Assembly (NCBI GenBank): GCA_024137785.1
Contig: JAHRHZ010000115.1
Location: 701,579-765,578, forward strand
Source of the DNA: Ginglymostoma cirratum
Lineage: Eukaryota
Direction of reading: 5' to 3'
Length of the DNA stretch: 64,000 nucleotides
The position numbers were made by a program, and so were the translations under genes. The notes below the pieces were generated by a model that saw only the letters and a program-made list of their open reading frames with translations, did not search any database and had not been told where the DNA came from. Positions 1 to 59,149 of this stretch are shown piece after piece. Each line of letters starts with the position of its first letter. Position 1 is the first letter of the stretch.

Positions 1-249
1 CATTTTTATTCAGACACTGAAAATAGAGTAATATTTATTTTAATTAATATGCTTGACTGATCATTGCAATGTAACAAACTGAAGCATATTGCTCACATTA
101 TTTTAATTGGATAATCATTTATTTAGACATCAGTTAAAGCGGCAACTCCTGACAGAAACACTCTTCAATTAATACCTTTTTTAAAAAAAAATCTTTCATT
201 GCAATGCAGCTAAGAACAAAAGTAACTTGGTGATACAAAGCAAACCTGA

Positions 250-872
250 CAGTAATTATTTGAGATACAGTAGGAACTGCAGATGGTGGAGAATCTGAGA
301 TAACAAGGTGTAGAGCTGGATGAACACAGCAGGCCAAGCAGCATCAGAGGAGCAGGAAAGCTGACGTTTCGGGTCCTTAGAANNNNNNNNNNNNNNNNNN
401 NNNNNNNNNNNNNNNNNNNNNNNNNNNNNNNNNNNNNNNNNNNNNNNNNNNNNNNNNNNNNNNNNNNNNNNNNNNNNNNNNNNNNNNNNNNNNNNNNNNN
501 NNNNNNNNNNNNNNNNNNNNNNNNNNNNNNNNNNNNNNNNNNNNNNNNNNNNNNNNNNNNNNNNNNNNNNNNNNNNNNNNNNNNNNNNNNNNNNNNNNNN
601 NNNNNNNNNNNNNNNNNNNNNNNNNNNNNNNNNNNNNNNNNNNNNNNNNNNNNNNNNNNNNNNNNNNNNNNNNNNNNNNNNNNNNNNNNNNNNNNNNNNN
701 NNNNNNNNNNNNNNNNNNNNNNNNNNNNNNNNNNNNNNNNNNNNNNNNNNNNNNNNNNNNNNNNNNNNNNNNNNNNNNNNNNCCGAAACGTCAGCTTTCC
801 TGCTCCTCTGATGCTGCTTGGCCTGCTGTATTCATCCAGCTCTATACCTTGTTATCTCAGTAATTATTTGAG
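250..872. mobile_element. Penelope-like element insertion with inverted terminal arms and 15-bp TSD, spanning an assembly gap
   Basis: Left arm (265-382) and right arm (783-857) are reverse complements of the same PLE terminal repeat seen at 18131, 23647 and 54354; CAGTAATTATTTGAG occurs at 250-264 and 858-872. Confidence 0.85.
383..782. other. Assembly gap (400 N)
   Basis: Run of N. Confidence 1.
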
Positions 873-2604: not shown

Positions 2605-2735
2605 ACAATTGACGAAGAGGGATCACTGGACTCGACACGTTAACTTTGCTTTCTCTCAACGGGAGCTGCCGGAACTGCTGAAATTCTTCAGCAATATTTG
2701 ATTTTATTTCAGGTTTCAAGCATTTACAGTTTGTT
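2605..2735 (+). mobile_element. Old short PLE-terminal-repeat-derived element (degenerate hammerhead-type head)
   Basis: GAAGAGGGATCACTGGACTCGACACGTTAACTTTGCTTTCTCTC..CTGCTGA; related copies at ~24965, ~38725, ~58975. Confidence 0.6.
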
Positions 2736-8550: not shown

Positions 8551-9850
8551 ATCTGAGAAAACAAGGTGTAGAGCTAGATGAACACAGCAGGTCAGGCAGC
8601 ATCAGAGCAGCAGGAAAGCTGACCCTTCTTCAGAAATGGGGGAGCGGAAGGGGACTCTGAAATAAATAAAGAGGGTGGGGAGGCGGATGGAAGGTAGATA
8701 AAGGAACAGGTACGTGGACAGGAGACGGACAGGTCAAGGAGGGGGGGATGGAGACAATAGAGGCGAGTGTAGGTGGGGAGTTAGGCTGAGGCTTGGTCAG
8801 TCAAGGGAAGACTGGCAGGTCAAGGAGGCGGAGAAGAGGCTGGTAGATAGAAGGTGGGGGTGGGGCTTGCTCAGTGAGGTGGGAGGGGCGGATAGGTTGG
8901 AGAAAAGACGGACAGATCAAGGAGGACGAGATGGGCTGGTTTTGGGATGAGGTCGGGAATGGGGAGATTTTGAAGCTTGTGAAGTCCACGTTGAGATAAT
9001 TGGGCTGCAGGGATCCTAAGACAAATATGAGGTGCTGTTCCTGCAATCTTCGGGTGGCATCGTTGTAGCACTGGTGTAGGCCCAGGATGGATATATCGTC
9101 CAAGGTGTGGGAGGGGGAGTTGAAGTGTTTCTCGACTGGGAGGTGCAGTCGTTTGTCACGAACCAAGCGTGGATGTTCCACAAAGCAATCTCCAAGCCCG
9201 GTACCCCCGATGTAGAGGAGGCCACACCAGGAACAACGGATACAATATACCACATTAGCAGATATGCAGGTGAACATCTGTTTAATGTGGAAGGTTTTCT
9301 TGGGGCCTGGGATGAGGGAGAGGGGGGAGGTGTAGGAGCAGGCGTAGCACTGCCTATGGTTGCAGGGAAAATTTCCAGGAGTGGTAGGGCTAGTGGGGAG
9401 TGTGGAGCGGACAAGGGAGTCACGGAGAGAGCGGTCCGAGGGAAGGCAGATAAGGTGAGGGAGGGAAAAATGTCTTTTGGAGTTGTGTCAGATTGCAGGT
9501 GGTGGAAGTGGCAGAGGATGTCGCGTTGAATCTGGAGGTTGGTGGGGTGGTATGTGAGGACAAGGAGTATTCTGTCTTTGTTGTTATTGTGGAGAGGGGG
9601 TGTGAGGGATGAGTTGTGGGAAATGCGAGAGATGTGGTCGAGGGCATTTTCGACCACTGTGACGGGCAAGTTGCGGTCCTTGAAAAACGAGGACATCTGG
9701 GATGTCCAGGAGTGGAATGCCTCACCTCGGGAGCAGTTGCGGCGGGGGCGAATGAATTGGGAATAGGGGATGGCATCTTGCAGGAAGGTGGGTGAGAGGA
9801 AGTGTATTCTAGGAAGCTATGAGCGTCGGTAGGCTTGAAATAGGTATCTG
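8551..9850 (-). mobile_element. 5'-truncated Penelope-like retroelement (GIY-YIG endonuclease region), frameshifted
   Basis: ORFs 9016-9696 and 8801-9277: VVENALDHISR..LVLTYHP..; NVVYCIRCSWCGLLYIGGT..EQHLIFVLGSLQPNYLN; purine-rich 3' region and terminal repeat at left. Confidence 0.9.
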
Positions 9851-10974
9851 TTGGCTTAGATTTTGTATGGTACGGGCCTCCTCAACTTCAATCAAGGCAC
9901 CAAATCATAGAACAAATGAGTATCATATTTGATTAACAGTGATAAACGTGATCTAATTCAGCTTCGCTTAGACGTTCTCTGTAAATGGTGTATGTGGCAA
10001 GAAAATAAATTTTGGTGGGAATGCTACAGTAGGGATGAATGAATTGGAATTAGAGCCAGAATGTTTCAACTTGGTTTCAGGATGGAAATGTTCCAACAGT
10101 GAGTCGTGGAAGTCTAAAGTTCGCTTGGCCAAACTTCCATTGTGTTTCTGCATCGATTTAAAACGTTCCTACTTGATTTTTTTTATTTGATTCTGCGAGT
10201 AAACTAAAAATTGCAGATTGATAAGTAATGAGAAAATAGAGGTCAGTCGTTTAAAGAAAAACTGAAGTGAAAGGCTTGAGTTGAAGAGTGTCCTACTCTA
10301 TTTCTAATGCTGTGGTCAGAGTATTATTTCCATATCTACTTCAAATTCATGAGGAATAATATCTCATACCGTATTTCAGAGAACAATCTCACATACATAA
10401 TGCAAATTATTTTCAATCATATTAAATCACATTGAACAGAATTTCCGTCACCGTTCACCGCTCCAGTAACGCAGTAAAATCTTTGCAAATACATTAGGAA
10501 TCAGAGAATAATTACGTTTGATTACAATTTTCCCGAAATTCGGGATTTGGGATGGCACTCAGCATGACCAACATCATTTGTATGCATGGTTCATGAATGT
10601 TGAAATGAAGTCATTATATTGAGCGCAGATTAGTTTTGTCACAAGTATCAATAGAAGGACTTGACTGAGAGAAGAATTCTGAAGAGAAAGTTACTCCATG
10701 TCTAACATCATGGTACCTTTGATTATTTTACTTTCTTCATAATATTCACATGCTGCAAAGCCAGTGTTCCTTAAATATAATTACACAAGTCATGTTTTAG
10801 GTAATCACGAATGATTTCACAAATCAAAATATATGAACAATTTATCGTTTCAGGAAAAGTTGAAAATTGCCATCTCGAAGGTCGTTTCTTTATCTCGTAA
10901 GGAAATAGCCTGAAGGCGGTGCTTTGATCGCAAAGAGGCATTTTTCATTGGCTGTGATTTTTACTTCATTGCAG

Positions 10975-11280
10975 TTACCGAGTGCCGTGATTACACAGTT
11001 AAAATACTACCGCCGCCAATTGAACAGGTCTTACTGGAGGCGACGGTGACGTTGACCTGTGTTGTATCCAGTCTTCCTTTTGGAGTCAACGTCACCTGGA
11101 CACAGGAAAATAAGCCTCTGAAATCAGAGATTGCTGACCAAGCCGGAGAGGATCCCGACAGCGTGATCAGCAAATTGGACATTTCTACTGAAGCCTGGCT
11201 GAGTGGGGTTTCTTTCTACTGCGTGGTGAACCATCAGCATCTACCGACTCCTCTCAGAGACTCCATCCACAAGGAGAAAC
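10975..11280 (+). CDS. IGHM: IgM heavy chain Cmu3 exon (copy 1)
   Basis: ttgcAG acceptor, C|GTGAGT donor; [55 protein letters not shown]. Confidence 0.95.
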
Positions 11281-11743
11281 GTGAGTGGTGAGATCAAAGC
11301 ACTAACTCTATTCTTGTGCTTGTTTCCAAGGCATACGTAATTTTGCTCCACTCACATCGATAGTATTCTTTGATTTATAATGAACTAATACCTTTGGAAG
11401 CTTTCACGATGCATTTCCGGGCAGGATAGCTCAGTATGTGATTAAGAAAAAGTTGGATTCAAGGATAATGTATGATGATTTAGTCACATACAGTAGCAAT
11501 AAGCTTGGTTTGTCACGTAAACGTCAGCAATGACGAATGGACAGAAGTTTCTGGTTTTGGGCTGGAAAAATGCGGCAACTTACCTTTTTCTTCTAATAAA
11601 TAAAATGGATACCACTCTGCTCCTTTGAAAACTAAAGTGGATAAATCCCAAATTAAAAATGGAATATTTTAATATTTAGTGAAATATCAATGTTGAACTT
11701 GTATTTTTAAAAATATTTTATGTTTGTTTCAAATATTCTGCAG

Positions 11744-12135
11744 CAATAAATCCACTGGAGCCATCAGTGTCTGTCCTCTTGCCACCGACGGAAGAAGTCT
11801 CCACTCAGAGGTTTGTCTCCCTCACTTGTTTCGTGAGAGGTTTCTCCCCGCGTGAGATCTTCGTCAAGTGGACAAACAATGATAAGCCGGTGAATCCCAG
11901 TAATTACAAGAACACCGAGGTGACGGCACAGAGCGACAACGCCTCCTTTTTCATGTACAGCCTGTTATCCATTGCTGCGGAGGAGTGGGCCAGCGGTGCT
12001 TCTTACTCCTGTGTGGTGGGACATGAAGCGATTCCATTGAAGATCATTAACAGAACAGTTGACAAATCCAGCGGTAAACCAAGTTTTGTAAACATTTCAC
12101 TTGCACTGATGGACACCATTAATTCATGCCAATGA
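11744..12135 (+). CDS. IGHM: IgM heavy chain Cmu4 exon with secretory tailpiece (copy 1)
   Basis: ctgcAG acceptor; [57 protein letters not shown]; internal donor AGCG|GTAAAC at 12073/12074 for the membrane form. Confidence 0.97.
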
Positions 12136-12162
12136 AAATTACAAGGTTACGTTTAAGAATTC

Positions 12163-12168
12163 AATAAA
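12163..12168 (+). terminator. Secretory-form polyadenylation signal
   Basis: AATAAA 28 nt after the tailpiece stop; conserved in copy 2 (32387-32392, - strand). Confidence 0.8.
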
Positions 12169-13334
12169 AGTACTAATGACTTTGTTCCTCCAATTGTGAT
12201 TTAAATACACAACGCTTAATTAATTGTGTTTGACACTTTTACTAATATTTCATCCATTCAGTTCAAGTTGATTATTAACAGACCCAGTACTCATGTCTTA
12301 TACAGTTAATGCACCCTACTCAGACGCACTCTTATTCGGAGATAGAGTAAAGCTCACGCATTGCCGCATTCCACAAAGTACCTTCTCCATCTCAAATCCC
12401 ACTCAGATTAAATTTGAGAATGTCCAATCTTTTGACAAATTCACACCCCGCATTTTGATCTAGCTGTTCCTAATTCCCAAAGTGCCTAATTCTTCAAAAT
12501 TTATGTTTGCTTTAAAATGCTGCTTTTCACGAATTGGCAGCGTAAACCTAAGAGACTTTATGAATTATTTTTGATGGTAACATACCAACAGGAAAGACAA
12601 GCTAAGGGCAACAAATATCAACGACGACAGAGCAACTTGATTTTAACTTTTGTTCCTAAGGAACTGCCAGGTATCTTGCACCAAGGCACTAATTGAGAGT
12701 ATTTATCTTCACTTCTACACTAGAGAGGACAAAAAGAAAAATTGTTGTTTTTCAGCAGAGGGAGACGAGAGGGAACGTTTAAGCGACTGTGCTCTTGTTT
12801 CCCGTACAGATTTTTTTAACTGTAGAGGCCATTTGTAATGTGAACTAGTTGCGTTTTCTTACTGTCCGAAGATTTAAAATGTCCACGCGAAATTATAATT
12901 TTGAAGCATGTTGGACACGCGTGTCACCGTTAATCACCTCTTAACATTGAATTCCCATAATCAAAACCAAAGCTGATGATTGCATTACCCCAATTCGTAC
13001 TCCACAGTTTTGTCTCAGTTCTGTGGAACTCATGGGATCAATTCTGATTTCCGAACGTCTGTCGTCATTTAGTTTCAGGTACAGTACACTTATTGATATT
13101 TCCGAAAACATATTCAGAAATATTTTTATCCATCTCTGGGGCAGTGGCTGATTGAACTCAGGCCCCTTGTCTCATAGACAGAAATTCTATCACTGCAACA
13201 AAAGAGTCTTTCGCAAAGCAATAATCTTTCCACAACGACGAGAAATGCTCCCCACACCATTCGGGTCAGACCTCATTATTGGCAGTTGATTAAAATTAAA
13301 ACCACGACGAAAATGAGCATGGTTTAGTAAGACA

Positions 13335-14360
13335 GCAGAAACACACACAGATACAGACACGTGCTCACAAACACACACATAAAAACACAAATACGCAGAA
13401 TCTCACGTAAAGACACGTACTTGCGCACACAGCAATGTGCATACAAATAAGCCATCACACTAGCATACACGCACGGATACACATATGCATATGATCATGA
13501 ACATCCACGTAAATAACTGCATACAAAAGCAGATACACGGAAACACACACACACACACAAAAGCGAGCGTGCGCGCACACACACGTACACACACCACAGA
13601 CACAAGTGAACAGTGGTACATACACATAACCATGAAAAATATGGACACAAGTTAACACTCAAATGGAGACGAATGTATGTACATTCGTTCACCATAAAAC
13701 CTACTGACATACATGCATAAATGCACAGATACAGCATCTGAAAACGTCATTCCAAATGTATGCTCACAGAGACACGGTTGAGCACAGAGATAAATATTAA
13801 ATTCATCACTATCCCATTTTCACAAACATAGAGATATGACGAGAAAGGCAGATTAATAGTTTATTTTTAAATGCCACTCATTTGCACATATACACTGTCA
13901 TGCTTACATACAACTTCAGAGTCTGACATGCAGACACGCAACTGTGCAGATCAATAAACAGTGGAGCATTTACAAGGCAAGGGTTAGGATACAAGCATCC
14001 GCAAACATCCGCGCGCAATAACACAACCAAACATATCAAGGATTGTTTATGTGCACAGGCACACAAAAAGGCATCACATAAATATAGCCATCCATCAAAA
14101 CAGAAAGTTTCATACTTACATAATATATACATATGGAGCACAAACTTGAAAATAACCTAACGTATGTACGATCGGAAATAGATACATAAACGCATATTTT
14201 AGATGGCACTAATGCAAAACAAACGCATTCGCAATGACATTAAAAGATAAAGACAGGCATCAACGAATGAAGTGACATGTTAACACAATGTGAAATTGTG
14301 AAATTAACAACATCTGCATACACAATCACAGCCATGTAAATGAACGCACCAGCACTAAAG
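13335..14360 (+). repeat. CA-rich low-complexity tract between secretory polyA and TM1
   Basis: Dense imperfect (CA)n/ACAC/ACAT including a short pure (AC)n run near 13543; mirrored at 30150-31240. Confidence 0.8.
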
Positions 14361-15044
14361 GAACATGGATATGTTTATTTACGTCCAAACTCCAACATGG
14401 ACGCTGCGAAGTAAGAGAAACTCGTGAACAGATTCACAAACATTAAAGGAAAATCATAGACACCAAGCTATAGACAAAAATAAATGAAGGTGGACGCGCA
14501 CAAAAATTTACTCCCAAAGTATACTGATGCCACAAACAAAAATATGAAGCAGTGTCTTTACTGTGCATCTGAATTATGTTCATGATTTGCCAAGCAATTG
14601 TTCACGAATAATTGAAGAAGACGAGTAATCATATTTTAACTCTTATTCAAGGATGGCCAAAATTTTCAACTAAAGAGCTGTCACAGCCTATATTTAAAAT
14701 ATAATTATGTTATAATAATAATAACTAATAATAATGATAATCGTTCCCAATGAGTGTTCCGCAAATGCTAACAATGATAACATCACACAATAATTGATTA
14801 AATGACGAAGTAATTCAAAATGTTCTGACACACATAATAAAGGAAGACTGTGTGCAGTTAGTGTTAGCAATTTATTGCTGACAGACACGAACGCAATCAT
14901 AGATCCAGGTAGGGAGTCAAATTTGAGAACGTCCCTACAGCTTGAAAAAAATGTTATGGTCCATGATTACATGATTTATACATAGGCTTATCAGTCTGGA
15001 TCGACAAACAACGCAAATGCATTCTCTCGGTTTTATATTCATAG

Positions 15045-15172
15045 ATTCAATAGATTACCCTTGGATTGAAGATTATGAGGATGATAACAGCAACATCGGG
15101 ACGACTGCTTCCACATTCATTACCCTGTTCTTCCTGAGTATTTTCTACAGCGCTGCCGTCACTCTGGTGAAG
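15045..15172 (+). CDS. IGHM: IgM TM1 exon (copy 1)
   Basis: catAG acceptor, AAG|GTGGGA donor; (D)SIDYPWIEDYEDDNSNIGTTASTFITLFFLSIFYSAAVTLVK: acidic spacer plus antigen-receptor TM motif with YS. Confidence 0.93.
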
Positions 15173-15308
15173 GTGGGAATAATTAAATAATTCACGCTTC
15201 AAACAGAAAAATATGGTTTGTCAAATCTCTAATGTCGTTGAATAAAAATTAAACCTAAATGCTCCTGATCATAAACATCTGGATCATTATTTTATCGCTT
15301 TTTTCCAG

Positions 15309-15317
15309 GTCACGTGA
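15309..15317 (+). CDS. IGHM: IgM TM2 exon, coding part (V-T-stop)
   Basis: ttttccAG|GTC ACG TGA; aligned with GTC AAG TGA in copy 2. Confidence 0.88.
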   Translation, partial: VT

Positions 15318-15729
15318 ATAAATTTTGGATCCTGTAGAATTTTCTCATCTATTTGTTGAGCCTTCTGAAATCCATATCTACAATCTATCCTGTTGTTGAC
15401 TCTAACAGTGCGATAACTTCAGTTTATAAGTGTGTAACTGACAAAATAATTGATGGCGTTTCCCTTTCTTTGACATCGTTAAGAAAACTATGGTTGAAAT
15501 ACTTTGTAACTTCCCATTTTTTGAAGACAGCTTGTTTTTTTTGTCGCTATTGTTTTTCCTTATTCAGAGTGGTGGCCTAACCTTTATTTTGAGACTGTAC
15601 TTTCTCTTTCTGATGATTGTTACAGCTCAGAGCACGTGTGTCTTCATTCCAATGTGCTATCAATTCATTATATTCCCTTTCAATAACATTAACATACATT
15701 TTTGGATAAAAATGCTGTCTGAAATAGTT

Positions 15730-15735
15730 AATAAA
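15730..15735 (+). terminator. Candidate membrane-form polyA signal
   Basis: AATAAA conserved at the homologous position of copy 2 (28868-28873, - strand). Confidence 0.6.
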
Positions 15736-16720
15736 TCATTAATGAATATTCACAAACCTCGAGTTGGCTTAATTCTTTCTTCAAAGCCCATCAGTAATAA
15801 TATATTTTCCCCTGTTTATGTGGCCCACTCCCTTCCCACCCAAATGCTTTTCACGTCTTATAACTGGGGGTGTTTCACTGTCATTTCGGTTAATGCTGCG
15901 ACACCTTGCAGTCCACCATTGTATATCAATCTTTAACTCAGTCTGCCTAATGTAACACTCCAGAGGCAGAATGACTAGAGCGCAAGGAAACCCTCGATGT
16001 TTCCTTTTATGCACAGGGGGTCACGGCCTCGTGTCAAGTATGTTTAAAAAATAAGATCTTTGTTCTACAAGAAGCCTATAGAAGGCAGGAAATAGAGTTA
16101 TAAATCTCACTCTGCTCTGTCTAAAATAAAACTGCTCCCTACATTGGTACAGCGTGGGTTAATAAAGGATGAACCTCCACTTAAAATGCCAAATTAAATA
16201 TTCATCAGCCGAAACTGTCAACGTTCAGTCAGGAATAGAGACACAGCCGTGGGCAAACCAAGGGCTGACTCTTCGTCCTGAAGTTGTTTTTTTACATAAG
16301 TCTCATGAAGCACAAATGTTTGAAACTATTTGAAACACAGCTCCTTCCAGATGCCAAGGAAGGAGAATAAAAACTGCCTGATACAGGGTTATCAGTGAAT
16401 AGCACACTTCACAATTGTAAATCAGAGTTCAATGTCGATCAGACAAGGCAGAAATGAAAAATACTGGAAATATTCAGCATTCAGGCCTGTGTAGCGCAGG
16501 ACAGAATTCTACAGAAATAATAACAGAAATAATAGTTTGTATCCTATCTGGTCTAGAGATGCAGAAGCCTTCTCCACGAGTTATAGTTTATTTATTCTGG
16601 GAGCTATATATGTAATATGAATCCGTTACGTGAAAAAAATCTGTAGACATTTGAAATCACAAATCGACTAAGACTTGCCTCGGCCAAATTTGATATCTTA
16701 TTCAGCCTGGAACACCCAGT

Positions 16721-18130
16721 ATACAAAGGATGGGGTATTCAGTGTACAGACAGATAGAGCAAGCAGAGAATCTATGAGGAAGGATAAGCAGTTGATAGGG
16801 CAAAGTGGCAGTCAGTGTGACGCGTTGAGGTGTGTCTACCTCAATGCAAGAAGTATCAGGAATAAGGTTGATGAACTTAGAGCATGGATCAGTAATTGCA
16901 ACTACGATGTTGTGACCATTACAGAGACTTGGATATCGCAGGAATCGTTATTGAATGTTCGGGGTATAAAAGTTTCAAAAGAAATAAGGATGGACGTAAA
17001 AGAGGTGGGACAGTGGCATTGCTAATCAGGGATAGTATCACAGCTGCAGAAAGGGAGGTCGTGGATGAGGCTTTCTCCACTGAGTCAGTATGGGTGGAAG
17101 TCAGAAACACGAAAGGAGCAGTCACTTTATTGGAAGTTTTTTATAGGCCCCCGAATAGGAACAGAGACACTGAGAAACAGATTGGGAGACAGATTCTTGA
17201 AAGTTGCAGAAGTAACAGAGTTGTTGTCATGGGCGACTTCAACTTCCCTAATATAGACTGGAACCTCGCAAGTGCAAATAATTTGAATGGAGCAGGTTTT
17301 GTCAGGAGTGTCCAGGAAGGATCTCTGACTCAATATGTAGATAGGCCGACTAGAGGGGAGGCCATATTGGATTTGGTGCCTGGGAATGAACCAGGTCAGG
17401 TGTCATATCTCTCGGTGGGAGAGCATTTTGGTGATTGTGATCACAACTCCCTGACTTTTATTATAGTCATGGAGGTGGATAGGAGTAGACGGTATGGGAA
17501 AGTATTTAATTAGGGGAGGGGGAATTGCAATGCTATTAGGCAAGAACTACGGAGCTCCCACTGGGATAAGAAGTTCTCATGAAAATGCACAATAGAAATG
17601 TAGAGGTTGTTTAGTGCCCAGTTGCTACAGATACCGGACAGGTTTGTCCCACTGAGGCAAGGAAAGGATGGTACGGTGAAAGAACCTTTGCTAACAAGGC
17701 GTGTTGAACACCTAGTCAAGAGGAATAAGGAAGCTTACTTAATGTTGACGAAGCAAGGATCAGACAGGTCTCTAGAGGTCTACTAGGCAGCCAGGACGGA
17801 AATGAAGAATAGACTTAGGAGAGCTAGAAGTGGGTATGAGAAAACCTTGGGGGGTGGATCAAGGAAAACCCCAAGGCTTTCTATACTTATGTGAACAACA
17901 AGAGGATGGCCAGAGTGAGGGTAGGGCTAATCAGGGATAGTGGAGGGAACTTACGTGTGGAGTCAGAGGAGGCAGGGGAGGTCCTCAATGACTACTTTGC
18001 TTCAGTATCACCAGTGAGGGGAAACTTGACGTTTGTGAGGACAGCATGAAACAGGCAGAAATGCTCGAACAGGTTGTTGTTGGGAAGGAGGATGTGCTAG
18101 AAATTTTGAAAAACATGAGGATAGAGAAGT
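16721..18130 (+). mobile_element. CR1-like LINE ORF2 N-terminal part (APE endonuclease), disrupted, lacking RT and 3' end
   Basis: LRCVYLNARSIRNKVDEL..ITETW / GGTVALLIR..FYRPP..VMGDFNFPNIDW..TRGEAILDLV..DCDH. Confidence 0.92.
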
Positions 18131-19925
18131 GAGAGATAATAGGTACTGCAAATGCTGGAGAATCCGAGATAACAAGGTGTGGAGCTGCATGAACACAGCA
18201 GGTCAAGCAGCATCATAGGAGCAGGAAAGCTTGACGTTTCAGGCCTGGACCCTTCATCAGAAATGGGGGAGGGAAAGAGGGTTCTGAAATAAATAGGGAG
18301 AGAGGGGGAGGCGGATAGAAGATGGATAGAGGAGAGGATAGGTGGAGAGGAGACAGACAAGTCAAAGAGGCGGGGATGGAGCCAGTAAAGGTGAGTGTAG
18401 GTGGGGATGTAGGGAGGAGATAGGTCAGTCCAGGGAGGACGGACAGGTCAAGGGGGCGGGATGAGGTTAGTAGATAGGAGATGGGGGTGCGGCTTGAGGT
18501 GGGAGGAGGGGATAGGTGAGAGGAAGAACAGGTTAGGGAGGCGGGGACGAGCTGGGCTGGTTTTGGGATGCGGTTGGGGGAGGGGAGATTTTGAAGGTTG
18601 TGAAATGCAAATTGAAACCATTGGGCTGCAGGGTTCCCAGGCTGAATATGATTTGCTGCTCCTGCAGCCTTCGGGTGGCATCATTGTGGCATTGCAGGAG
18701 GCCCAGGATGGACATGTCGTCTGAGGAATGGGAGGGGGAGTTGGAATGGTTCGCGACTGGGAGGTGCAGTTGTTTGTTGGGAACTGAGCGCAGGTGTTCT
18801 GCAAAGCGGTCCCCAAGCCTCCGCTTGGTTTCCCCGATGTAGAGGATGCCACAATGGGTACAGCGGATGCAGTATACCACATTGGCAGATGTGCAGGTGA
18901 ACATCTGCCTGATGTGGAAAGTCTTCTTGGGGCCTGGGATTGCGGTGAGGGAGGAGGTGTGGGAGCAGGTGTAGCACTTCCTGCGGTTGCAGGGAAAAGT
19001 GCTGGGTGTGGTGGGTCTGGAGGGGAGTGTGGAGCGGACAAAGGAATCACAGTGAGAGTGGTTCCTCCGGAAAGCAGACAAGCGTGGGGAGGGAAAAATG
19101 TCTTTGGTGGTGGGGTCGGATTGCAGATGGCGGAAGTGTCGGAGGATGACGCGTTGGATCCGGAGGTTGGTCGGGTGGTACGTGAGGACGAGGGGGATTC
19201 TTTTTTGGTTGTTTTATGCGGGGACGGGGTGTGAGGGATGAGTTGCGGGAAATGCGGGAGACACGGTCGAGGGCATTCTCGACCACTGCTGGGGGAAAGT
19301 TGCTGTCCATGAAGAATGACGACGTCTGATATGTACGGGAGTGGAATGCCTCATCCTGGGAGCAGATGCGGTGGAGGCGAAGGAATTGGGAATAGGGGAT
19401 GGCATTTTTGCAGGAAGGTGGGTGGCAGGAGGTGTCTTCTAGGTAGCTGTGGGAGTCGGTGGCCTTGAAATGGATATCGGTTTCTAGGTGGCTACCCGAG
19501 ATGGAGACAGAGAGGCCCAGGAAGGAGTGAGAGGTGTTAAAGATGGTCCAGGTAAACTTCAGGTTGGGGTAGAAGGTGTTGGTGAAGTGGATGAACTGTT
19601 CAAGCTCCTCGTGGGAGCACAAGGAGGGTCCAATACATTCATCAATATAACGGAGGAAGAGGTGAGGGATGGGGCCAGTGTAGCTGCAGTAGAGGAACTG
19701 TTCCTCGTATCCTACAAAGAGGCAGGCATAGCTTGGGCCCATGCGGGTACCTATGACAACCCCCTTTGTCTGTAGGAAGTGGGAGGAGTTGAAGGAGAAG
19801 TTTTTAAGGGTGAGGACGAGTTCAGCTAAGTGGTAAGAGTGTCAGTGGAGGGGCACTGGTCGGACCTGCTGGACAAGAAGTAGCGGAGGGCTTCTAGGCC
19901 ATCTGTATGGGGAATGCAAGTACAC
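18131..19925 (-). mobile_element. Penelope-like retroelement (probably Neptune-type): partial RT, Cys linker, GIY-YIG endonuclease, 3' terminal repeat
   Basis: YTCIPH near 19920; GTRMGPSYACLF; FLRYIDE; HPPSCKNAIPYSQFLR; CNRRKCYTC linker; NVVYCIRCTHCGILYIGETKRRLGDRFAEH; frameshifts between ORFs 19047-19742 and 18533-19081. Confidence 0.93.
18229..18264 (-). ncRNA. Minimal type-I hammerhead ribozyme motif in the PLE terminal repeat
   Basis: Minus strand reads UUU-CUGAUGA-AGGGUCCAGGCCU-GAAA-CG-UC^AAG: both core boxes, stem II, palindromic ACGU in place of helix III, GUC cleavage triplet. Confidence 0.75.
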
Positions 19926-23646: not shown

Positions 23647-23772
23647 AGATAGTAGGAACTGCAGATGCTGGAGAATCTGAGATAAAAAGGTGTAGAGCTG
23701 GATGAACACAGCAGGCCAAGCAGCATCAGAGGAGCAGGAAGGCTGACGTTTCGGGCCTAGACCCTTCTTCAG
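23647..23772 (-). mobile_element. Solo PLE terminal repeat ending exactly at a hammerhead core (23745-23772)
   Basis: Near-identical to the arm at 265-380; minus strand CUGAAGA-A-GGGUCUAGGCCC-GAAA-CGUC. Confidence 0.85.
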
Positions 23773-23859
23773 CAAGACAAGGGAACCTTTCCTTTCGGCC
23801 TTCTTCAGTGGCAAATCCTAACCACGAGACCACCAGGGAAGATATGGGAAACATTTTTA

Positions 23860-24140
23860 TCTGCGAGTTCATACAGGAGAAAGACCATTCCTCTGTCTTG
23901 AACGTGGGAACGGCTTCACGAATTCACTTGACCTTCTGACACACTGGTGAATTCATATTGATATGAGACTGTTCACCTGCTCTGATTGTGGGAGAGGATT
24001 CACTCAGTCATCTATCCTGCTGACACATCAGTGAGTTCACCCTGAGGAGAGGCCATTCATCTGCTCCAAATGTGGGAAAGGACCTCACTGTTACTCCATT
24101 TACTCAGTCACCGGTGAGTTCACAGAAGACTACAGTAACT
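23860..24140 (+). pseudogene. C2H2 zinc-finger pseudogene remnant (about 3 fingers) between the two IgM copies
   Basis: [11 protein letters not shown]..; [36 protein letters not shown] with stops and indels; 3' flank resembles that of the 36.5-37.6 kb ZNF. Confidence 0.8.
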
Positions 24141-24329: not shown

Positions 24330-25330
24330 CTCCGTCTTCCCTTTTTCCTCCATCCCCATCTCCAACAACAAGTGCAAGGAGCTCATACGTGTCACTAAAA
24401 TTGCGATAATCTAATCAGCTGCCTCCGCTTCTTTCTTTCCGTTTCACTCACTCACCATGCAATACTGTCTCTAAAGTTCCTCCTTGTCTGGGCGCTAAAC
24501 TTAGATCTTTCTTCAGTGTCTCTCCCATCTTGTCCTCATCTTGTCCATGAGCCCAACTACTCTGAGTTCAAAATTATTCCTCATGAATTCCTAAGTAGTC
24601 TGTTTCCCGGTGCTATAAATGACGTTTTCTTCAGGTTCTGTCCCTCTTTTCTTTAAATCTGCCATTACTCCAATCTCAAAGAAAACAAGGTTTTATCCCC
24701 TCCTTCCAAACTATTGTCCCCGTCTCCAACTTTGCTTTCTTTCCTTAAAATCAATGTCATCTTGTAAATCTGTTCCAACTTTTCCAGAACTCCATGTTTG
24801 AATATCTCCAATCAGGTTTCTGTCGCTAACACATTGCGCATGCAGATTCTATCAAAATTATAAATTACATCCTTTTTTACTCTATCGAAGGTAAGCCAAC
24901 ACATCTCGTCTTCCTGAGCCTAATGTAGCCTTTAATAAAATTGACCACAACATGGCGCTCCAGTTTTGAAGAACAAGATGTTGGACTCAATGTAAACTCT
25001 CTTTCTCTCTTCACAGATGTTGCCAGGCCTGCTGAGTTTCTCCAACATCCTCTGTGTTTGTTTCAGATTTCCAGAATCCACAGTAATTTGCTTCTGTTTC
25101 TTCCAATACACCTCCACCGTTATTGAGCTGAGTGGGATTACTCTCTCCTGGTCGTTTCCTTCTCTATCTGATCGTAGCACTGGCAATACATTCCACTCCC
25201 ACTCACATACTTCTCTCTGGTTCCCCAGAGGATCTAGCCTTCGCCTCCTTTATTTCTCATCAATATGCTGCCAACAATGACCGCATCTTTAAACATCGTA
25301 TCAGATGTTCATTAATAGCTGGCAGCTCGA
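24330..25330 (+). mobile_element. Degraded L2-like LINE RT fragment with a nested short repeat (24960-25095)
   Basis: FKSAITP.SKK..NY.P; TTTGAATATCTCCAATCAGGTTTC (QSGF); TCTGGTTCCCCAGAGGATCT (GVPQGS-like). Confidence 0.65.
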
Positions 25331-25779: not shown

Positions 25780-26880
25780 AGAATTCTCGCATGGAAACAG
25801 ACAGGCCATGTTTCCCAAGCTAAACTAATCCCAATTGCTTGTTTTTGCCAACTATCACTCTAAACCTTATCTATTCATGTACCTGTCTAAATGCCTTTAA
25901 ATGTAACTGTACCCGAATTTGTCATTTATTCTGGCAGTTCGTTCCAGACATGACCATAACTCTGTGTGGAAATGTTGCCCGCCAAGTCCTTCTCAATTTT
26001 TCTCTTCTCACATTAAAAATATCCCCCTAATTTTGCATTTAATTTCCCTGTGGAAATACCTTTGTTATTCATGTTGACCATGTCCCTCATGATTTTATAA
26101 ACCTCTATAAGGTCACCCCTCAACCTCCTATGCTCCGGTGAAAAATGTCCCAGCCTATCCTTACAACGCAAACCCTCCAATCCTGGCAACATACCGGTAA
26201 ACATTTTTTGAACTCTCGCCAATTTAATTACATCCTTCCCAAAGCAGTGTAGACGTGTACACAGTGCTCCAAACGCGACCTTAGAAACGTCCTGTAAAAC
26301 AGAAACTTGATGATCCAACCCCTGTACTCAATGGTCTGGGCAATGGTCTGGGCACGCTACACGCCTTCTTAACCAATCTGTTCACCTGTGATGTAACTTT
26401 CAAAGAACTATATACCTGAACCCCTGGGTCTCTCTGCTCGACAACACTCCCTACATCCCTTATGTTAATTGAATAAGCCCTTTCCTTGTTTGTTTTACCA
26501 AAATGCAGTGCCTGGCATTTATCCAAATTAAACTTCTTCTGCCACTCCTTCTCCCATTGGCCCATTGTTCAAGATCCCTTTGGAATCTTAGATAACCTTT
26601 TTCTCTATTGACTAAACCACCGATTTTGATATAACCACAAGCTTACTAACCAACAGTCTTAAATTTTCATCCAAATTCTTTATATTAATATCAAACAAAC
26701 GTGGAGCCATCATCAATCCCTGTGGAACACAACTGTCCACCAATACTCTCTGTCTCCGACTGTCAAGCCAATTTTGCATCGAATTAGCTTGCTCACCCTG
26801 AATCCAATTTCATATAACTTTACGAATTAGTCTACAATGCGAAACTTTGTCAAAGACTTTACTAAAATCTATTTCAACAA
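25780..26880 (-). mobile_element. CR1-like LINE 3' portion
   Basis: ORFs 26281-26565 (WQKKFNLDKCQALHFG) and 26013-26318 (RRLRGDLIEVYKIM). Confidence 0.88.
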
Positions 26881-29298
26881 CTTCTGCCACAATGGGTTTT
26901 GCACATAAATTATTCAATTGGAAACACGAATAATTTACTAGTGATAGGTAATTGCTGGAAATAAAAAGAAATGGGTGACTTGCCGATGGGAAGTGAAAGT
27001 TACAACGTGAAGAAGGACACTTCTAGATATAAAAGGTAATAAAAGGAAAACTTCCTCCATTCTTCATGCTCAGGTCTTACCTGGATGCTGTACCATCAGG
27101 GTATTTCCTGTTTTGTTTTATTAACTCAAGTTCCTCTCACCCGCTGTTTCATACTTGCCAACCATTTGTTAACGGTTTTTTGCCTTTTCAGGTTGCAGGT
27201 TGCCTTATCCTGTGCATTCTCAGACTTCAATATTTGGAGTCCTTGCTGTTTCAACCTGTGCCTCGGCCTATAAAACACAGTTGCAGAAGAGCGTTAATAA
27301 AAGAACTTAAGGTAAAATACTGAGATATTTAGAGAAAGCGTAGAACTTCAACAGACAGGTTGCAGGAACGGACGTCAAGTGGAAATCCAGTATTTCTAGC
27401 ACTTCTGACCTCTGCCTGCCCTGATCAACATCAACTTCTGGCGTACCATTTTTGAGAGCTGTTATTCATTGATATCCTTGTGAAAGATATATCTCAGTCT
27501 CATGGAGGTGTGACGTGGTTCTTTCTTTTGTAATGGATTCAGAAGAACATCTAATGATAAATGTGTAAATCCAAAGACGTGCAGAACAGAGGATCCTCCA
27601 TGGATACGTGCACAAATCAGGAAATATACTATAAGGTCTCGAGAGAAGGACAAATCAACATTATTTCATAAATGGCACTGCAGAGAACAATTACAAAGGA
27701 ATCGTGTTAAACTGAAATAGAACAGTCGCTTTACTCACCTGGAAAATTGCGTCCAGTTTCAGATGTTACATCCTTGTAAGAATACAAAGTCAGGAGAGAG
27801 GGTAAATGGCTGATTGTTTTATTTTTGAGAATTCACACGCGTGTAATTGTTGTATGTATTTAAGTCGACCGTTGATCTCTTGTTGAAGCATAACACAAGG
27901 ATTAAATGGTGAATTAAGATAAATTACAAGTTTGACAAGTTCTTATCAAATAATTAACCACCATTGGATACTCCAGGCTGACCAGGATATCAGATTTCAC
28001 CGAGGCAAATCTTAATTAATGAGTGAAATGCCTACAGCTGTTTTCATAAGGGATTCATATGTATCTCCCAGAATAAATACACTATAACTTCCGGAGAGAG
28101 CTTCAGCATCTGAGAACAGGTTCTATTTTTGGTGCTGAATTCTGTCTTGTGCCACATAGGACCCAATGGCTGAATATTCCCAGTAATTTTGATCTCTGCC
28201 TTGCCTAATGGACATCGACGTCTGGTTTATAATTTTGAGGGTTGCTATTCAGTGATATCCGTGTATCAGATAGACCATGGGTTCATTTCTTGGAATTTTG
28301 ACAGCTGTGGTGTGTCAAGTGGATCTCGGGATTTATGCTCCATGAGGCTCATGTGTGAGAAAAACTCCATTTTTAAGAATCAGCCCTTGGTTGGTTCACG
28401 TGTTGTGTCGGTATTCCGGTCTGAACGTTGACATTTTTGGCTGATGAATGTTTAGTTGGTCATTGTAGGTGGAGATTTGCCCATTAGGAACCCAGGCTCC
28501 ACCGACATTAGGAGTATTTTTGTTTTAGACAGAGTAAGCTGTCTGCCTTTTGTAGGCTTCTGGTGGAAAAATGCTCGTGATTTTTGTAATCAGTTGACCC
28601 GAGAAAGTGAACCTTTGCGCGTATGAGGAATCATTAGAAGGACTCCTTGCGCTCTAATCATTGTGCATCTGGAGTACCGTATTCCAATTTGGCCTCAAGG
28701 TAGCTAAGCATTAACCCAAATGGCTGGATGAAACACAATCTGACGTAAGAGAAAAACATTTGACTGGGAACAGAGTGGGGCGTGTAAACTTGGAAAAATG
28801 TATCATTACTGATGGGCCTTGAAGAAAGAATTAAGCGAACTCAAGGTTCATACATATTCATTCAAGGTTTATTAACCATTTCAGACAACACTGTTAACGA
28901 AGAGTTTATGTTAATGTTAACAGAAGTGAATATGACTGGGTTGCCACATTAAAATTAGAGCGCATGCGCTCTGAGCTGTAAATTTTAAGTACATTTGTAA
29001 AAGTCACCAGAAAGAGAAAATACTGCCTCAACATAAAGGGTTGGCAGCAATTCTGAATATGAACACCACTAACAACAACAGACTTCAAACAATTGGGAAG
29101 GGACAAATTATTGCATCATAATTATATCAACGATACCAAAAAAAAGTAAAATGGAAAAACCGTCAATTATTTTCCCTGTTACATATTCTTAAACTGAAGT
29201 TATTTCACTGCTAGAGTCAATGACAGGACAGATTGTTGATTTGGAATTCAGAGGCTTCGACAACCAGATGAGGAGAATCTGCGGGGTCCAAAATTCAT

Positions 29299-29307
29299 TC
29301 ACTTGAC
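29299..29307 (-). CDS. IGHM: IgM TM2 exon, coding part (copy 2, V-K-stop)
   Basis: ttttccAG|GTC AAG TGA on the minus strand. Confidence 0.85.
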   Translation of the reverse strand, partial: VK

Positions 29308-29444
29308 CTGGAAAAGAGGGATAAAGTGACAACGCAGACAGTTATGATCGAGGCATTCAGATTTTAATTTTTATTCCATGACACTTAAAAACTTCACAAA
29401 TCATATTCGTGTGTTTGAATTACGAATGATTTAACTATTCCCAC

Positions 29445-29572
29445 CTTCACCAAAGTGACGGCAGCGCTATAGGTAATACCCTGGAAGAAGAAGATAATGA
29501 ATGTAGAAGCAATTGCCCAGATGTTGCCGTTATCATCCTCATAGTCTTCAATCCAAGTGCTATTTATCAAGT
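29445..29572 (-). CDS. IGHM: IgM TM1 exon (copy 2)
   Basis: cgtAG acceptor, AAG|GTGGGA donor, 128 bp like copy 1; (D)LINSTWIEDYEDDNGNIWAIASTFIIFFFQGITYSAAVTLVK. Confidence 0.88.
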
Positions 29573-32811: not shown

Positions 32812-33099
32812 CTGCAGAATATTGTAAGAAAAGATAATTTTTTTAAAAGTCCATATTCAATATTAGGATTTCACTAAATATTAAAATATTCAATTTTACA
32901 TTGGGATTTATTTACTTTCATTTTCTAAAGAAGCAGAATAGCAACCATTCTGTTCAATAAACAAAGTGTTTAGTTCGAAAATCATTTCGAGCCATGTTTC
33001 CAGCCCAGAACGAGGAAATTCTGTCCATTTGTCATTTCTGTTGTTTACATCACAAACCCTCAGGTTTCTTCCCACCTTATTTGAATTATAATAGAATAT

Positions 33100-33198
33100 C
33101 GATTTATGAAGAGGGATCCCGACCCGAAACGTCCAGTTTCCTAGTGCTAAGATACTGCCTGGCCCGCTGTGTTCCTCCAGTTCCACGCTGTGTTATCC
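33100..33198 (+). mobile_element. Short PLE terminal-repeat fragment in the copy-2 Cmu3-Cmu4 intron
   Basis: ATGAAGAGGGATCCCGACCCGAAACGTC..GCCTGGCCCGCTGTGTTCCTCCAG..TGTTATC; absent from the homologous copy-1 intron (~11465). Confidence 0.75.
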
Positions 33199-33359
33199 TT
33201 CAATCCATCTTTTTCTTAATCAGCTACTCAGCTATCCGGCCGTGAAATGCATCATTAATGCTCCGAACGATGTTAGTTCATTACCAATCAAACATGCTTT
33301 TAATATAACTGGATCTAAATTAGACATGGGAAAATTGGTGCTGTAATCTCACCACTCAC

Positions 33360-36473: not shown

Positions 36474-37640
<1,167 letters not shown>

Positions 37641-37965: not shown

Positions 37966-39639
37966 TGTTTGAGTCTGCGTCAAGATGCTAGCAGTGGCAC
38001 GTTAGGCAGCATTCAGGTTTCTGGGTAAGAGTAGCCCTGTTGATGATCTACATTGACTCTGTTTACAATTATTCAACCATTAAGTAATTCGAGGATGAAT
38101 TTAAGGTGAGAATGTTCTGAGGGGACATCATCAGGCACCAAGTACTTGAAAAAAAAACACTGTGAATCAAATAGTATTTTCTAACCCATCTATATTCATC
38201 ACAATACTGGAGCTGCAGTCTTTCTGCTGTCTGTACACACCAGCTACCGCTGCCGTTCATGCAGTGACCACAACAGACTTTATATGTTCCTTCGGACCTC
38301 AGGTTACCTCGGTGTTATCATTTATTTTTGTCAAATCCACTCATTTTTTTCTTTTCAGCAGCAGCCCTAATATCAAGTTTAGCATTAATGCCAACAGCAC
38401 TAAGCGAGATTGCAAACATCTTTACTCTAAGTCGGGTTTAACTTTGAGTAAGACCTCACACTCCACCAACTTCTATGGCTCAAATGAACACTGAATCTTG
38501 GGCTGAACCTGTGTTCACTTTTGAGCATAATCAATGATCCAGCCTCAACAGCTTTCTGTGGTAAATATTATCACAAATTCACTACCCTCTGCGAGAAAAA
38601 AAAATCTTCCAGATCTTTTAAGTTTGCTGCTCTTTATTTTGAGATTATGCCCTCTGGTCTTAGACTCTCACACAAGGGAAATAACCTTTCTGCATCTACC
38701 CTGTTAAATCCTAAAAGAATCCTCATAAAGAGTCAGCAGACTCGAAAAGTTAACTTGGCTGTCTTCCCACAGATGCTGACAGACCTGCTGAGTAATGGGA
38801 TCCTCTTAATATTATTTATCAGAAATACCAAGTGCTCTTTTTTGTTGTTGATGATGTTGAAAATGAAATGTTCTAACTCACTTGGGTTACAAGGCTAGTC
38901 CTCCACCCACTGAGCTATGGAGCCTCAGTTAAATAACTGACTCTAATATGGTCAAAAAATGAGTCAATTTTGATACTATCAGCTACAGAAATCGGTGTAA
39001 TTAAACCCATGACAAGTCTAGAACTGTACCCACTAAAAGATCAGTCCATGCAATATAAATTGCAATGTAATAGATAATTTGATAGCCTATGGAACATAAA
39101 CCAAGGCATCTGAGTGTAACAAGGTGAGGGGGTTATACACAGAAGGATGGGAGAATGCAATAAAGAATCTGAGAGGGTCCAGAGCGAAGAAAAGAGAGAC
39201 TTGGCCAATTATGATTTAATGTGGGCCTGACCCCTCCAGTGAGTGAGGTCACATTGTCCTTCTCAATACCTGGTTGATTTCCAGAGATTCAATCAGACAA
39301 GATTGTGTTCACACTGGCATATGCCCGGATCACAAACATATATTAGGCTAACCCAACCAGGTGAGTGAGCTGATGTAAAGATTGTGTCCCAAGATTCAAT
39401 GTAATTTGTGAGCAGAAATAATGATATAATTGTCATTTCTGTACAGGGAAATTTATCAGACACTCACAATGACGGACAGAAATTTAGATTGCTTCTTTTA
39501 ACCTCCTGATTTTTTTGTCCTGATATCTGCTAAGGCAAATAATTCCTGTAACTCCATCTTTAGTGATAAAATCTGTGGCAAGAGAATGTTCCATGTAACT
39601 ACACCGTGAATATACAATGCCAGACATTTACACAAGGCA

Positions 39640-54338: not shown

Positions 54339-55206
54339 AAGAGCTGGAGAATGAGATAGTAGGAACTGCAGATGCTGCAGAATCTGAGATAACAAGGTGC
54401 AGAGCTGAATGAACACAGCAGGCCAAGCAGCATCAGAGGAACAGGAAGGCTGACGTTTCGGGCCTAGACCCTTCTTCATAAATGGTGTTGGGGAAGGGGG
54501 TTCTGAAATGAATAGGGAGAGAGGGGGAGGCGGATAGAAGATGGATAGAGGAGAGGATAGGTGGAGAGGAGACAGACAGGACAAAGAGGCGGGGATGGTG
54601 CCAGTAAAGGTGAGTGGAGGTGGGGAGTTACGGAGGAGATAGGTCAGTCCAGGGAGGACGTACAAGTCAAGAGGGCGGGATGAGGTTAGTCGGGAGGAGA
54701 TGGGGGTGGGGCTTGATGTGAGAGGAAGGACAGGTTAGGGAGGTGGGGACGAGCTGGGCTGGTTTTGGGATGCGGTTGGGGGAGGGGAGATTTTGAAATT
54801 TGTGAAGTCCACATTGATACCATTGGGCTGCAGGGTTCCTAAGCGGAATATGTGGTGCTGTTCCTGCAACCTTCAGGTGGCATCGTTGCGGCACTGCAGG
54901 AGGCCCAGGATGGACATGTCATCTGAGGAATGGGAGGGGGAGTTGAAATGGTTCGTGACTGGGCTCACCTTTACTGGCTCCATCCCCGCATCTTTGATGT
55001 GTCTGTCTCCTCTCCACCTATCTTCTCCTCTATCCATCTTCTATCCGCCTCCCCCTCTCTCCCTATTTATTTCAGAACCCCCTTCCCCTCCCCCATTTCT
55101 GAAGAAGGACCTAGGCCCAAAACGTCAGCCTTCCTGCTTCTCTGATGCTGCTTGGCCTGCTGTGTTCATCCAGCTCTACACCTTGTTATCTAAGAGCTGG
55201 AGAATG
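54339..55206. mobile_element. Penelope-like insertion: 3' part on the minus strand plus an inverted terminal repeat, 15-bp TSD
   Basis: AAGAGCTGGAGAATG at 54339-54353 and 55192-55206; 54963-55191 is the reverse complement of ~54388-54615; degenerate hammerhead cores at 54452-54479 (-) and 55099-55126 (+). Confidence 0.92.
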
Positions 55207-58570: not shown

Positions 58571-59149
58571 ATAAATAGTTTGTGACAAACAGAGTGACTA
58601 TCTGATCTGGATGCGGTTTTGATTGACTTCTCTAATTGCAAATCAAATTTTCAAACAGAAAAGAAAGTAAGCAGTGGGAGAGAAACTAGAAGAACACACA
58701 CAGGTTGTCAAATTGAGGGAAATTAATCTGGTCATTTGTGGACCCAACACTTAGCGAGAAACATCACCATGAAAAGTGCTGGATTATCATCAATTCCCAA
58801 CATCAGTACCAGTAATATAGAGATAAAGGTGAGAGAGACATTTTATGTATCTACAACTTGACCTTGTTAATACTTTTTGCCCAATACATTTAATCCCTTG
58901 ATCTGAAGAACTAACGAAAAGTACAGAAGCAAAACTCTAGAAATCTGAAATAAAAACAAACTGCTGAAAATATTGGTTCTAAGAGAGGGTCACTGGACCC
59001 AAAACATTAACTTTGATTTCTCTTCCCAGATGTTGCCAGACCTGCTGAGCTTTTCCAGCAACTTCTGTTTTTGTTGTTGGAAATACTCAACAGGTTTGCC
59101 AGTATTTGAAATGGTGACAGATGTAGAAGGGGGAGAGCTGCCCCACAGA

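What the first reader, a model, noticed from the sequence alone, without database searches (positions are those of the whole stretch)
18229..18264. Hammerhead ribozyme cores carried by shark Penelope-like elements across an Ig locus
Seen: CUGA(U/A)GA-(A)-GGG..CCC-GAAA-CG-UC recurs at 18233-18260 (-, intact, 3-bp helix I), 23745-23772 (-, core intact, helix I lost), 33106-33133 (+, C3>A), 54452-54479 (-, C3>A), 55099-55126 (+, G12>A), partially at both gap edges (363-372, 783-792), and degenerately near 2610, 22882, 24965, 38725 and 58977. Established: PLE terminal repeats encode minimal type-I hammerheads whose palindromic helix-III stub (here ACGU) requires dimerisation, and an extra A after A9 is tolerated in natural hammerheads. 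Several short copies begin right at the core, suggesting non-autonomous, retrozyme-like SINE families built on the ribozyme-bearing repeat.
Basis: partly seen in the sequence, partly recalled or inferred. Interest (0 to 1): 0.7.

Follow-up and report, generated by a model that had tools for sequence, protein, structure and literature searches.

The report
Hammerhead at shark Penelope transcript start
These are decaying copies of the small hammerhead RNA motif, likely self-cutting, that Penelope-type jumping genes are known to carry, present over 100,000 times in this shark genome; the new lead is that the motif likely sits at the very first bases of the element's RNA, which would explain the many tiny copies without a separate short-element family.

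Summary
The motif is real: a minimal type-I hammerhead in the pseudo-LTR of Neptune/Nematis-type Penelope-like elements (PLEs), 270 nt downstream of a GIY-YIG frame. The genome holds 107,936 exact core matches against 63 controls. Helices I and II covary across families. The kind is published; my searches found no shark description. Corrections: the focal copy has a G10.1-U11.1 wobble; the seven main sites are five insertions; the Ig setting is incidental; 22882 is unsupported. Short copies are not a separate retrozyme family: they share haplotypes with long, ORF-bearing copies. Their 5' ends pile up 4 nt before C3 (35 of 87; 20 of 28 in a second family), not at the cleavage site. That base is an initiator-like A about 30 nt after a TATA-like box in three families, and it opens helix I. 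An extra T there is almost confined to copies that start there. Best reading: transcription starts at helix I, and short copies are cDNAs of the uncleaved 5' leader. Neither the start nor cleavage is shown in RNA. The scan noted similar motifs in two other genomes.

The parts
18233..18260 (-). Minimal type-I hammerhead core (C3 at 18260, C17 at 18233; predicted cut between 18233 and 18232), family A; G10.1-U11.1 wobble
18261..18264 (-). 5' strand of helix I; A at 18264 is the initiator-like base and predicted transcription start (inferred)
18229..18232 (-). 3' strand of helix I (3 bp in this copy, 4 bp in subfamily A1 and families C, D, E)
18290..18295 (-). TATA-like box, 31 nt before the predicted start (inferred promoter)
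18133..18228 (-). Rest of the pseudo-LTR (5' leader in the next unit) with the optional tail; insertion 3' ends cluster at +86..99 and +120..134 from C3
18533..19213 (-). Linker with CX4CxxC motif and GIY-YIG endonuclease frame of the 5'-truncated, decayed PLE
   Evidence: PF01541, E 4.1e-5, above cut-off
19047..19841 (-). Reverse-transcriptase fragment of the same PLE, in another frame than the endonuclease
8551..9852 (-). Older long copy of the same family in the IgM CH2-CH3 intron, antisense, core internally deleted
23647..23775 (-). Short copy beginning at the core; helix I lost
33096..33192 (+). 97-bp short copy (C3>A) in the CH3-CH4 intron of the inverted IgM duplicate; absent from the paralogous intron
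54353..55191 (.). One insertion with inverted pseudo-LTRs (cores 54452-54479 minus, C3>A; 55099-55126 plus, G12>A), 15-bp target duplication
261..860 (.). One inverted-arm insertion spanning the assembly gap (N 383-782), 15-bp target duplication
2609..2731 (+). Decayed relic of a related family (best match C)
24954..25084 (+). Decayed relic of a related family (best match C)
38710..38790 (+). Decayed relic of a related family (best match D)
58967..59075 (+). Decayed short copy, family C, beginning at the core

Best explanation
The motif is the minimal hammerhead of shark Penelope-like elements, predicted to self-cleave, and it likely forms the first 32 bases of the element's RNA, so that the tiny genomic copies would be reverse transcripts of the uncut RNA's 5' leader rather than a separate short-element family. 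Shown: it lies in both pseudo-LTRs of a full-length element, 166 nt before the ORF start and 270 nt after the ORF end; its helices covary between families; copy 5' ends pile up at the base that opens helix I; copy 3' ends fall at two sites about 35 nt apart. Inferred: a TATA-like box and initiator in the upstream unit's 3' end start transcription at that base. The PLE protein then primes at one of the two internal sites. If it primes in the 5' leader it reaches the RNA end after 100-135 nt and gives a short copy that lacks the TATA-like box; if it primes in the read-through 3' pseudo-LTR it gives long or tandem copies. Inferred from other PLEs: cleavage needs a second RNA (palindromic helix III) or the PLE protein, and would remove a 32-nt capped fragment, but uncleaved RNA is the main template. 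The copies in this window are decaying passengers with no likely role for the IgM genes.
For: PLE context. Abundance. Structure: 91.4% of 128 cells paired, 12 cells changed on both sides, 0 of 500 shuffles as high, slid controls 12.5-50% (16 hand-picked copies). 5' ends, using anchors outside the core: 35 of 87 scored family-A copies and 20 of 28 family-C copies at -7..+2; family-A rate 0.055 per nt against 0.007 or less elsewhere. Among copies that carry the ORF start, 9 of the 18 that reach the core also begin at -4..+2. TATA-like box at -35 (A), -33 (C) and -33..-35 (D) from C3 with an initiator-like A at -4 in all three, although the sequences between differ. That A is invariant in all 16 aligned copies, and helix I stops there. 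Four or more T after that A: 31 of 81 terminal against 1 of 90 internal copies, p 4e-11; genome-wide 5,550 copies with the extra T but only 36 against 31,655 when upstream element sequence is kept. Shared haplotypes. Internal priming, the tail and the uncleaved template were shown in vitro for the anole PLE (PMC11167929).
Against: No RNA evidence for the start or the cut: neither lay found a place where many molecules begin or end, though an unstranded poly(A) library swamped by read-through copies (83-92% of reads run on into other sequence) could hardly show one. No chance control was computed for the TATA and initiator positions; they are read from the outputs. The two long family-E copies show no clear TATA-like box, and family F has its box about 47 nt before C3, with copies that do not start at -4. 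The full-length copy L105 starts near -25, not -4. D. virilis Penelope has a TATA-less internal promoter and starts 46 nt before an intron that ends at helix I (PMC2377424; PMC4209133). For family A the hammerhead fold is about 6-7 kcal/mol above the predicted minimum as a monomer, and the double hammerhead is far above the cofold minimum in all six copies tested. One subfamily has only 2 bp of helix I. The 5'-end samples come from the first 2-3 Mb of one contig and include paired arms of single insertions.
Confidence: 0.65

Rival explanations
1. Same PLE hammerhead, but the 5' pile-up is an integration artefact: the endonuclease nicks the A/T-rich bases just before C3, or AT-rich target ends anneal there by microhomology, truncating long cDNAs at that spot.
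For: The anole PLE endonuclease prefers an ATT site near its own ORF-pLTR junction (PMC11167929). The 270 nt upstream are C-rich, with few A/T stretches. Target duplications often overlap the first bases of the copy.
Against: Families C, D and E have other bases at -4..-1 yet end at the same place. The more A/T-rich box at -35 is not a hot spot (1 end in -8..-30 and 5 in -31..-100). In three element-to-element junctions the extra T cannot come from host DNA (L192, L210, L215).
Confidence: 0.2
2. The short copies are self-propagating non-autonomous SINE- or retrozyme-like families, transcribed from their own internal promoter and mobilised by the PLE protein.
For: 27 of 28 scored family-C copies are short. 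A few short tandems exist (94-441 nt spacing), and a preprint reports tandem retrozymes averaging 363 bp in one chondrichthyan (10.64898/2026.07.22.740005).
Against: Haplotypes are shared with long copies and no common short-only haplotype exists. Long ORF-linked copies exist for A, C and D. Tandem units are irregular and include ORF-start sequence, as expected from template jumps. Short copies lack the TATA-like box. In the anole PLE the RNA needed lies beyond the priming site, which short copies lack.
Confidence: 0.1
3. The hammerhead-like fold is kept as a promoter-proximal or protein-binding structure and no longer cleaves in these families.
For: Weak helix I and an unfavourable predicted fold in family A, the most abundant family. 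No clear excess of copy ends at the cut site (A: 5 of 81 at risk, 0.008 per nt against 0.007; C: 3 of 28). Cleavage was dispensable for insertion in vitro in the anole PLE.
Against: All catalytic positions but the variable N7 and H17 are invariant or nearly so across families while the helices change in pairs. Subfamily differences avoid the core. The anole motif cleaves when the protein is added.
Confidence: 0.2

Closest known systems
Minimal hammerheads (min-HHR) in pLTRs of metazoan PLEs (Cervera and De la Pena 2014, PMC4209133)
   Same: Type-I topology, complete core, extra base 9.1, G10.1-C11.1 in the family majority, palindromic 15.2-16.2 with no helix III, both pLTRs of full elements, mostly dispersed single copies.
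   Different: No shark row in the supplement part and term search I saw. 107,936 exact cores against about 4,000 and 9,000 reported there for coelacanth and Xenopus. Helix II is short (4-5 bp). I did not see the link to a start site there.
Poseidon element PAc of Anolis carolinensis (Frangieh 2024, PMC11167929)
   Same: Hammerhead at the pLTR-ORF junction; two internal priming sites that define the tail; uncleaved RNA as template.
   Different: PAc's ORF starts inside helix II, here 166 nt after C3. The shark elements have the CX4CxxC linker that Penelope/Poseidon lack.
Neptune/Nematis PLE clades (Craig 2021, PMC8557442)
   Same: RT followed by a CX2-5CxxC linker and GIY-YIG; partial tandems; inverted 5'-truncated arms; 30-40 bp tail.
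   Different: No RT tree was built, so Neptune and Nematis are not separated here.
Non-LTR retrozymes of metazoans (PMC7229834; 10.64898/2026.07.22.740005)
   Same: Short, non-coding, hammerhead-bearing, PLE-related.
   Different: Retrozymes are tandem arrays of 150-450 bp units expressed as circles, with canonical hammerheads in the 2020 paper. The shark copies are mostly dispersed monomers or inverted pairs that share haplotypes with coding elements.

Membership tests
PLE minimal hammerhead | Complete catalytic core C3-A9, G12-A14, A15.1-U16.1, H17 | tested here: met
   Family majority from core-independent anchors in A and C; focal copy
PLE minimal hammerhead | Extra base between A9 and 10.1; G10.1-C11.1 pair | tested here: met
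   15 of 16 aligned copies G-C; the focal copy is G-U
PLE minimal hammerhead | Helices I and II supported by compensatory change | tested here: met
   4 of 8 pairs change on both sides (67 of 500 shuffles reach this count); cells and covariation score 0 of 500; copies hand-picked, some found with patterns that held helix letters
PLE minimal hammerhead | Palindromic helix-III stub allowing a double hammerhead | tested here: met
   Invariant in 16 of 16; the dimer can be drawn but is not the predicted minimum
PLE minimal hammerhead | Self-cleavage after H17 as dimer or with protein | not testable with these tools
   Needs an assay; RNA lays uninformative
EN+ Penelope-like element | RT plus C-terminal GIY-YIG | tested here: met
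   GIY-YIG above cut-off in the window; L105 RVT_1 E 1.3e-6 and GIY-YIG E 0.0011, both just under cut-off; homologs carry RT and some GIY-YIG
EN+ Penelope-like element | Pseudo-LTRs, inverted arms, optional 30-40 bp tail | tested here: met
Neptune/Nematis clade | CX2-5CxxC linker between RT and endonuclease | tested here: met
   definition
Neptune clade | Placement in the RT phylogeny | not tested
   No named reference set on hand
Non-LTR retrozyme | Tandem arrays of regular short units | tested here: not met
   Only 2-3 unit, irregular tandems in 8 loci inspected; no genome-wide tandem scan was run
Non-LTR retrozyme | Own non-autonomous lineage | tested here: not met
   Haplotypes shared with long copies in family A
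Non-LTR retrozyme | Abundant circular RNA | not testable with these tools
   No suitable library

The most novel reading that the evidence does not exclude
In shark Neptune-type PLEs the ribozyme is built onto the cap: transcription starts at the base that opens helix I, so cleavage, licensed by RNA dimerisation or the element's own protein, removes only a 32-nt capped fragment. It would act as a self-decapping switch between a translated RNA and an uncapped unit-length RNA that can be circularised with the 3' ribozyme's end, while tens of thousands of short genomic copies record the cap site of the uncut RNA.
Probability: 0.3. Interest if true: 0.65.

Novelty: new member of a known kind. Interest (0 to 1): 0.42.

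Why it matters
The role of the hammerhead in endonuclease-bearing PLEs is still open (PMC8557442). This genome offers a large natural record: copy ends map a likely RNA start at helix I and two priming sites, and show that uncleaved RNA is the main template in the germ line, matching an in vitro result from a lizard element. It gives exact constructs for a cap-removal test, and warns that short hammerhead-bearing repeats need not be separate SINE or retrozyme families. The copies in this window have no likely function.

Tried and rejected
Rfam scan: no hammerhead family hit. No RNA holder was on record among indexed runs; this is no evidence either way. RNA lays: run X18 (poly(A), unstranded, about 24% read) gave 46,902 and 52,344 reads, X19 only 19 and 471, with no start or end pile-up; the loose ends near the cut site are a subfamily indel, not RNA ends. 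Cleavage site as the source of short copies: rejected for family A, and n=3 in family C. Excess core conservation among inserted copies: not seen; non-CpG core 8 of 693 (1.2%) against 15 of 1,221 downstream after I removed three subfamily-diagnostic columns (71 of 1,431 with them); G12, in a CpG, is changed in 9 of 70. A splice acceptor 24 nt before C3 was considered as the boundary: two copies start near it, but no pile-up and no such joint among those listed. An extra cap-derived G at junctions: no clear signal. A role in IgM biology: rejected; the 33106 copy is missing from the paralog and most copies are antisense or outside the gene. A recalled tRNA-like look of the flank at 23795-23835 found no Rfam support. 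The RT query was cut in the wrong frame, so only the endonuclease query counts there. Lunse et al. (dimer cleavage) is not held and is known to me only through PMC6765202.

Full report
Observation. The five main sites and both gap-edge halves are present as described. The focal copy, 18233-18260 on the minus strand, keeps all single-stranded core bases and a 3-bp helix I, but closes helix II with G-U where the family has G-C. Sites 54452 and 55099 are inverted arms of one insertion, and so are the two gap edges; each has a 15-bp target duplication. Four of the five degenerate sites are relics of related families; 22882 is not supported. The motif is far above chance: 31,579 exact copies of one 28-mer against 0 controls and 107,936 generic cores against 63 in a 4.36-Gb genome.

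Carrier. The focal core lies 270 nt downstream of a GIY-YIG frame on the same strand, with an RT fragment further upstream. Locus L105 is a full-length element: two cores 3,546 nt apart flank an ORF that starts 166 nt after the first C3 and is frameshifted before the endonuclease. The closest named proteins are from Chiloscyllium punctatum (75-76% identity), with fragments from Rhincodon, Hemiscyllium and Hypanus, which fits a shark host. The CX4CxxC linker marks the Neptune/Nematis type; no tree was built. Inverted arms, partial tandems and two 3' ends about 35 nt apart (50 of 105 at +86..99, 42 at +120..134) are typical PLE features.

Is it a ribozyme motif under selection? At least six families occur (A-F, my labels). 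In an alignment of 16 hand-picked natural copies (family F not included) the core is invariant or nearly so apart from N7 and H17, while three of four helix-I pairs and one helix-II pair change on both sides; 91.4% of cells pair, against 12.5-50% for slid controls. The count of covarying pairs alone is not significant (67 of 500 shuffles), the copies are related, and some were found with patterns that held helix letters. Inside a family, inserted copies decay neutrally, fastest at CpG sites including G12. So selection acted on source elements, not on the inserted copies. Nearest-neighbour folding does not favour the active form in family A, and least in the focal copy; families C and D come closer. 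Published min-HHRs cleave weakly as dimers (PMC4209133) or only with protein (PMC11167929).

Where short copies begin. Using anchors downstream of the core, I mapped 5' ends for 106 family-A copies (19 cut by gaps, 87 scored) and 30 family-C copies (28 scored), from the first 2-3 Mb of contig C1, out of 99,352 and 26,976 exact anchor matches. 35 of 87 and 20 of 28 begin at -7..+2 from C3. The cut site shows no excess in A (5 of 81 at risk) and 3 of 28 in C. Among 30 of 1,591 copies carrying the ORF start, 9 of the 18 that reach the core also begin at -4..+2, five run far upstream as tandems, and four begin elsewhere (read by eye). Some copies are paired arms and so not independent.

What is at -4. 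In long copies of families A, C and D a TATA-like box lies 33-35 nt before C3 and an initiator-like A at -4, though the sequences between differ (the TATA and initiator consensuses are recalled, and no chance control was computed). Helix I runs exactly to that A. Copies that start there often carry an extra T after the A (31 of 81 against 1 of 90 internal copies; 5,550 genome-wide against 36 among about 31,700 internal ones). This fits slippage at an RNA end, by the polymerase or by RT, although flanking target DNA can supply some of these T. Against: family E shows no clear box, family F has another spacing, L105 starts near -25, and D. virilis Penelope uses a TATA-less internal promoter. A putative TATA plus initiator in a pLTR was noted for a rotifer PLE.

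Mechanism. Most likely the upstream unit's promoter starts RNA at helix I, and the PLE protein primes internally, as shown for the anole element. Priming in the 5' leader gives 100-135 bp copies that lack the TATA-like box; priming in the read-through 3' pseudo-LTR gives long and tandem copies. Uncut RNA is the main template. Cleavage, if it occurs, would remove a 32-nt capped piece. Confidence 0.65 for the whole, about 0.95 for 'PLE minimal hammerhead'. RNA data could not test the start or the cut. Short and long copies share haplotypes, which argues against separate retrozyme-like families.

Ig context. The window holds IgM-like constant exons, a transmembrane exon at 15113 and, just upstream, V and J segments, plus an inverted partial duplicate and zinc-finger sequences. 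The 33106 copy is absent from the paralogous intron. The setting is incidental.

Literature seen. PMC4209133: main text parts 1-2 of 4, supplement file 2 part 2 of 3 and a term search (no shark term; file 1 could not be searched). 10.64898/2026.07.22.740005: parts 1-2 of 5 and passages; it includes one chondrichthyan, and its supplements, which I could not see, may list these families. PMC11167929: parts 1-2 of 4. PMC8557442, PMC2377424, PMC3846280, PMC6765202, PMC7229834, PMC6155905: passages only. Searches for a shark PLE hammerhead or a start-site link returned no paper on it by title or abstract; the listings were not opened. Repbase and most subscription journals were not searchable. Two earlier notes of this scan on other genomes reached similar readings; they are not independent support.

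Verdict. A new member of a known kind. The start-site reading is a testable addition. Interest 0.42.

Noticed in passing
window 9863-16245 and 28404-34780: Inverted duplicate (about 75-86% alike) of the IgM CH3-CH4 region and downstream sequence; no transmembrane motif hit was found in the duplicate.
   Followed up: partly
L306:3900-5400 (just upstream of the window): V exon, one recombination-signal match and a J segment of the same IgM cluster.
   Followed up: partly
window 23863-24082, 36530-37640, 49074-49961, 57946-58550, 60847-60928: C2H2 zinc-finger arrays interleaved with the Ig region; 49132-49950 is an open 272-aa frame, the others look decayed.
   Followed up: no
L089, L127, L135, L212, L238, L251: A distinct hammerhead family (F) with a longer helix II and a TATA box about 47 nt before C3; possibly another PLE clade.
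   Followed up: partly
L105 (5' junction): The 11-bp target duplication happens to place a TATA box at the same distance from the predicted start as the element's own box.
   Followed up: no
L053/L054, L064-L067, L131, L133, L144, L153: Very short head-to-head palindromic insertions, one arm starting at helix I and the other at various points, sometimes near the cut site; many assembly gaps sit inside such pairs.
   Followed up: partly
window 23776-23835 (minus): The flank of the short copy holds a collapsed core-like piece and a stretch that looked tRNA-like to me (recalled; no Rfam support).
   Followed up: partly
window 55608-56115: 36-bp tandem repeat array.
   Followed up: no
window 16896-17513, 26013-26568, 34886-35522: LINE fragments (APE endonuclease hit at 16899-17510).
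   Followed up: no
PMC4209133 supplement, Fig. S3: By eye, several non-shark PLE hammerheads also have an initiator-like motif 4-8 nt before C3 (for example Xenopus, Ciona, Nasonia); not counted against chance.
   Followed up: no
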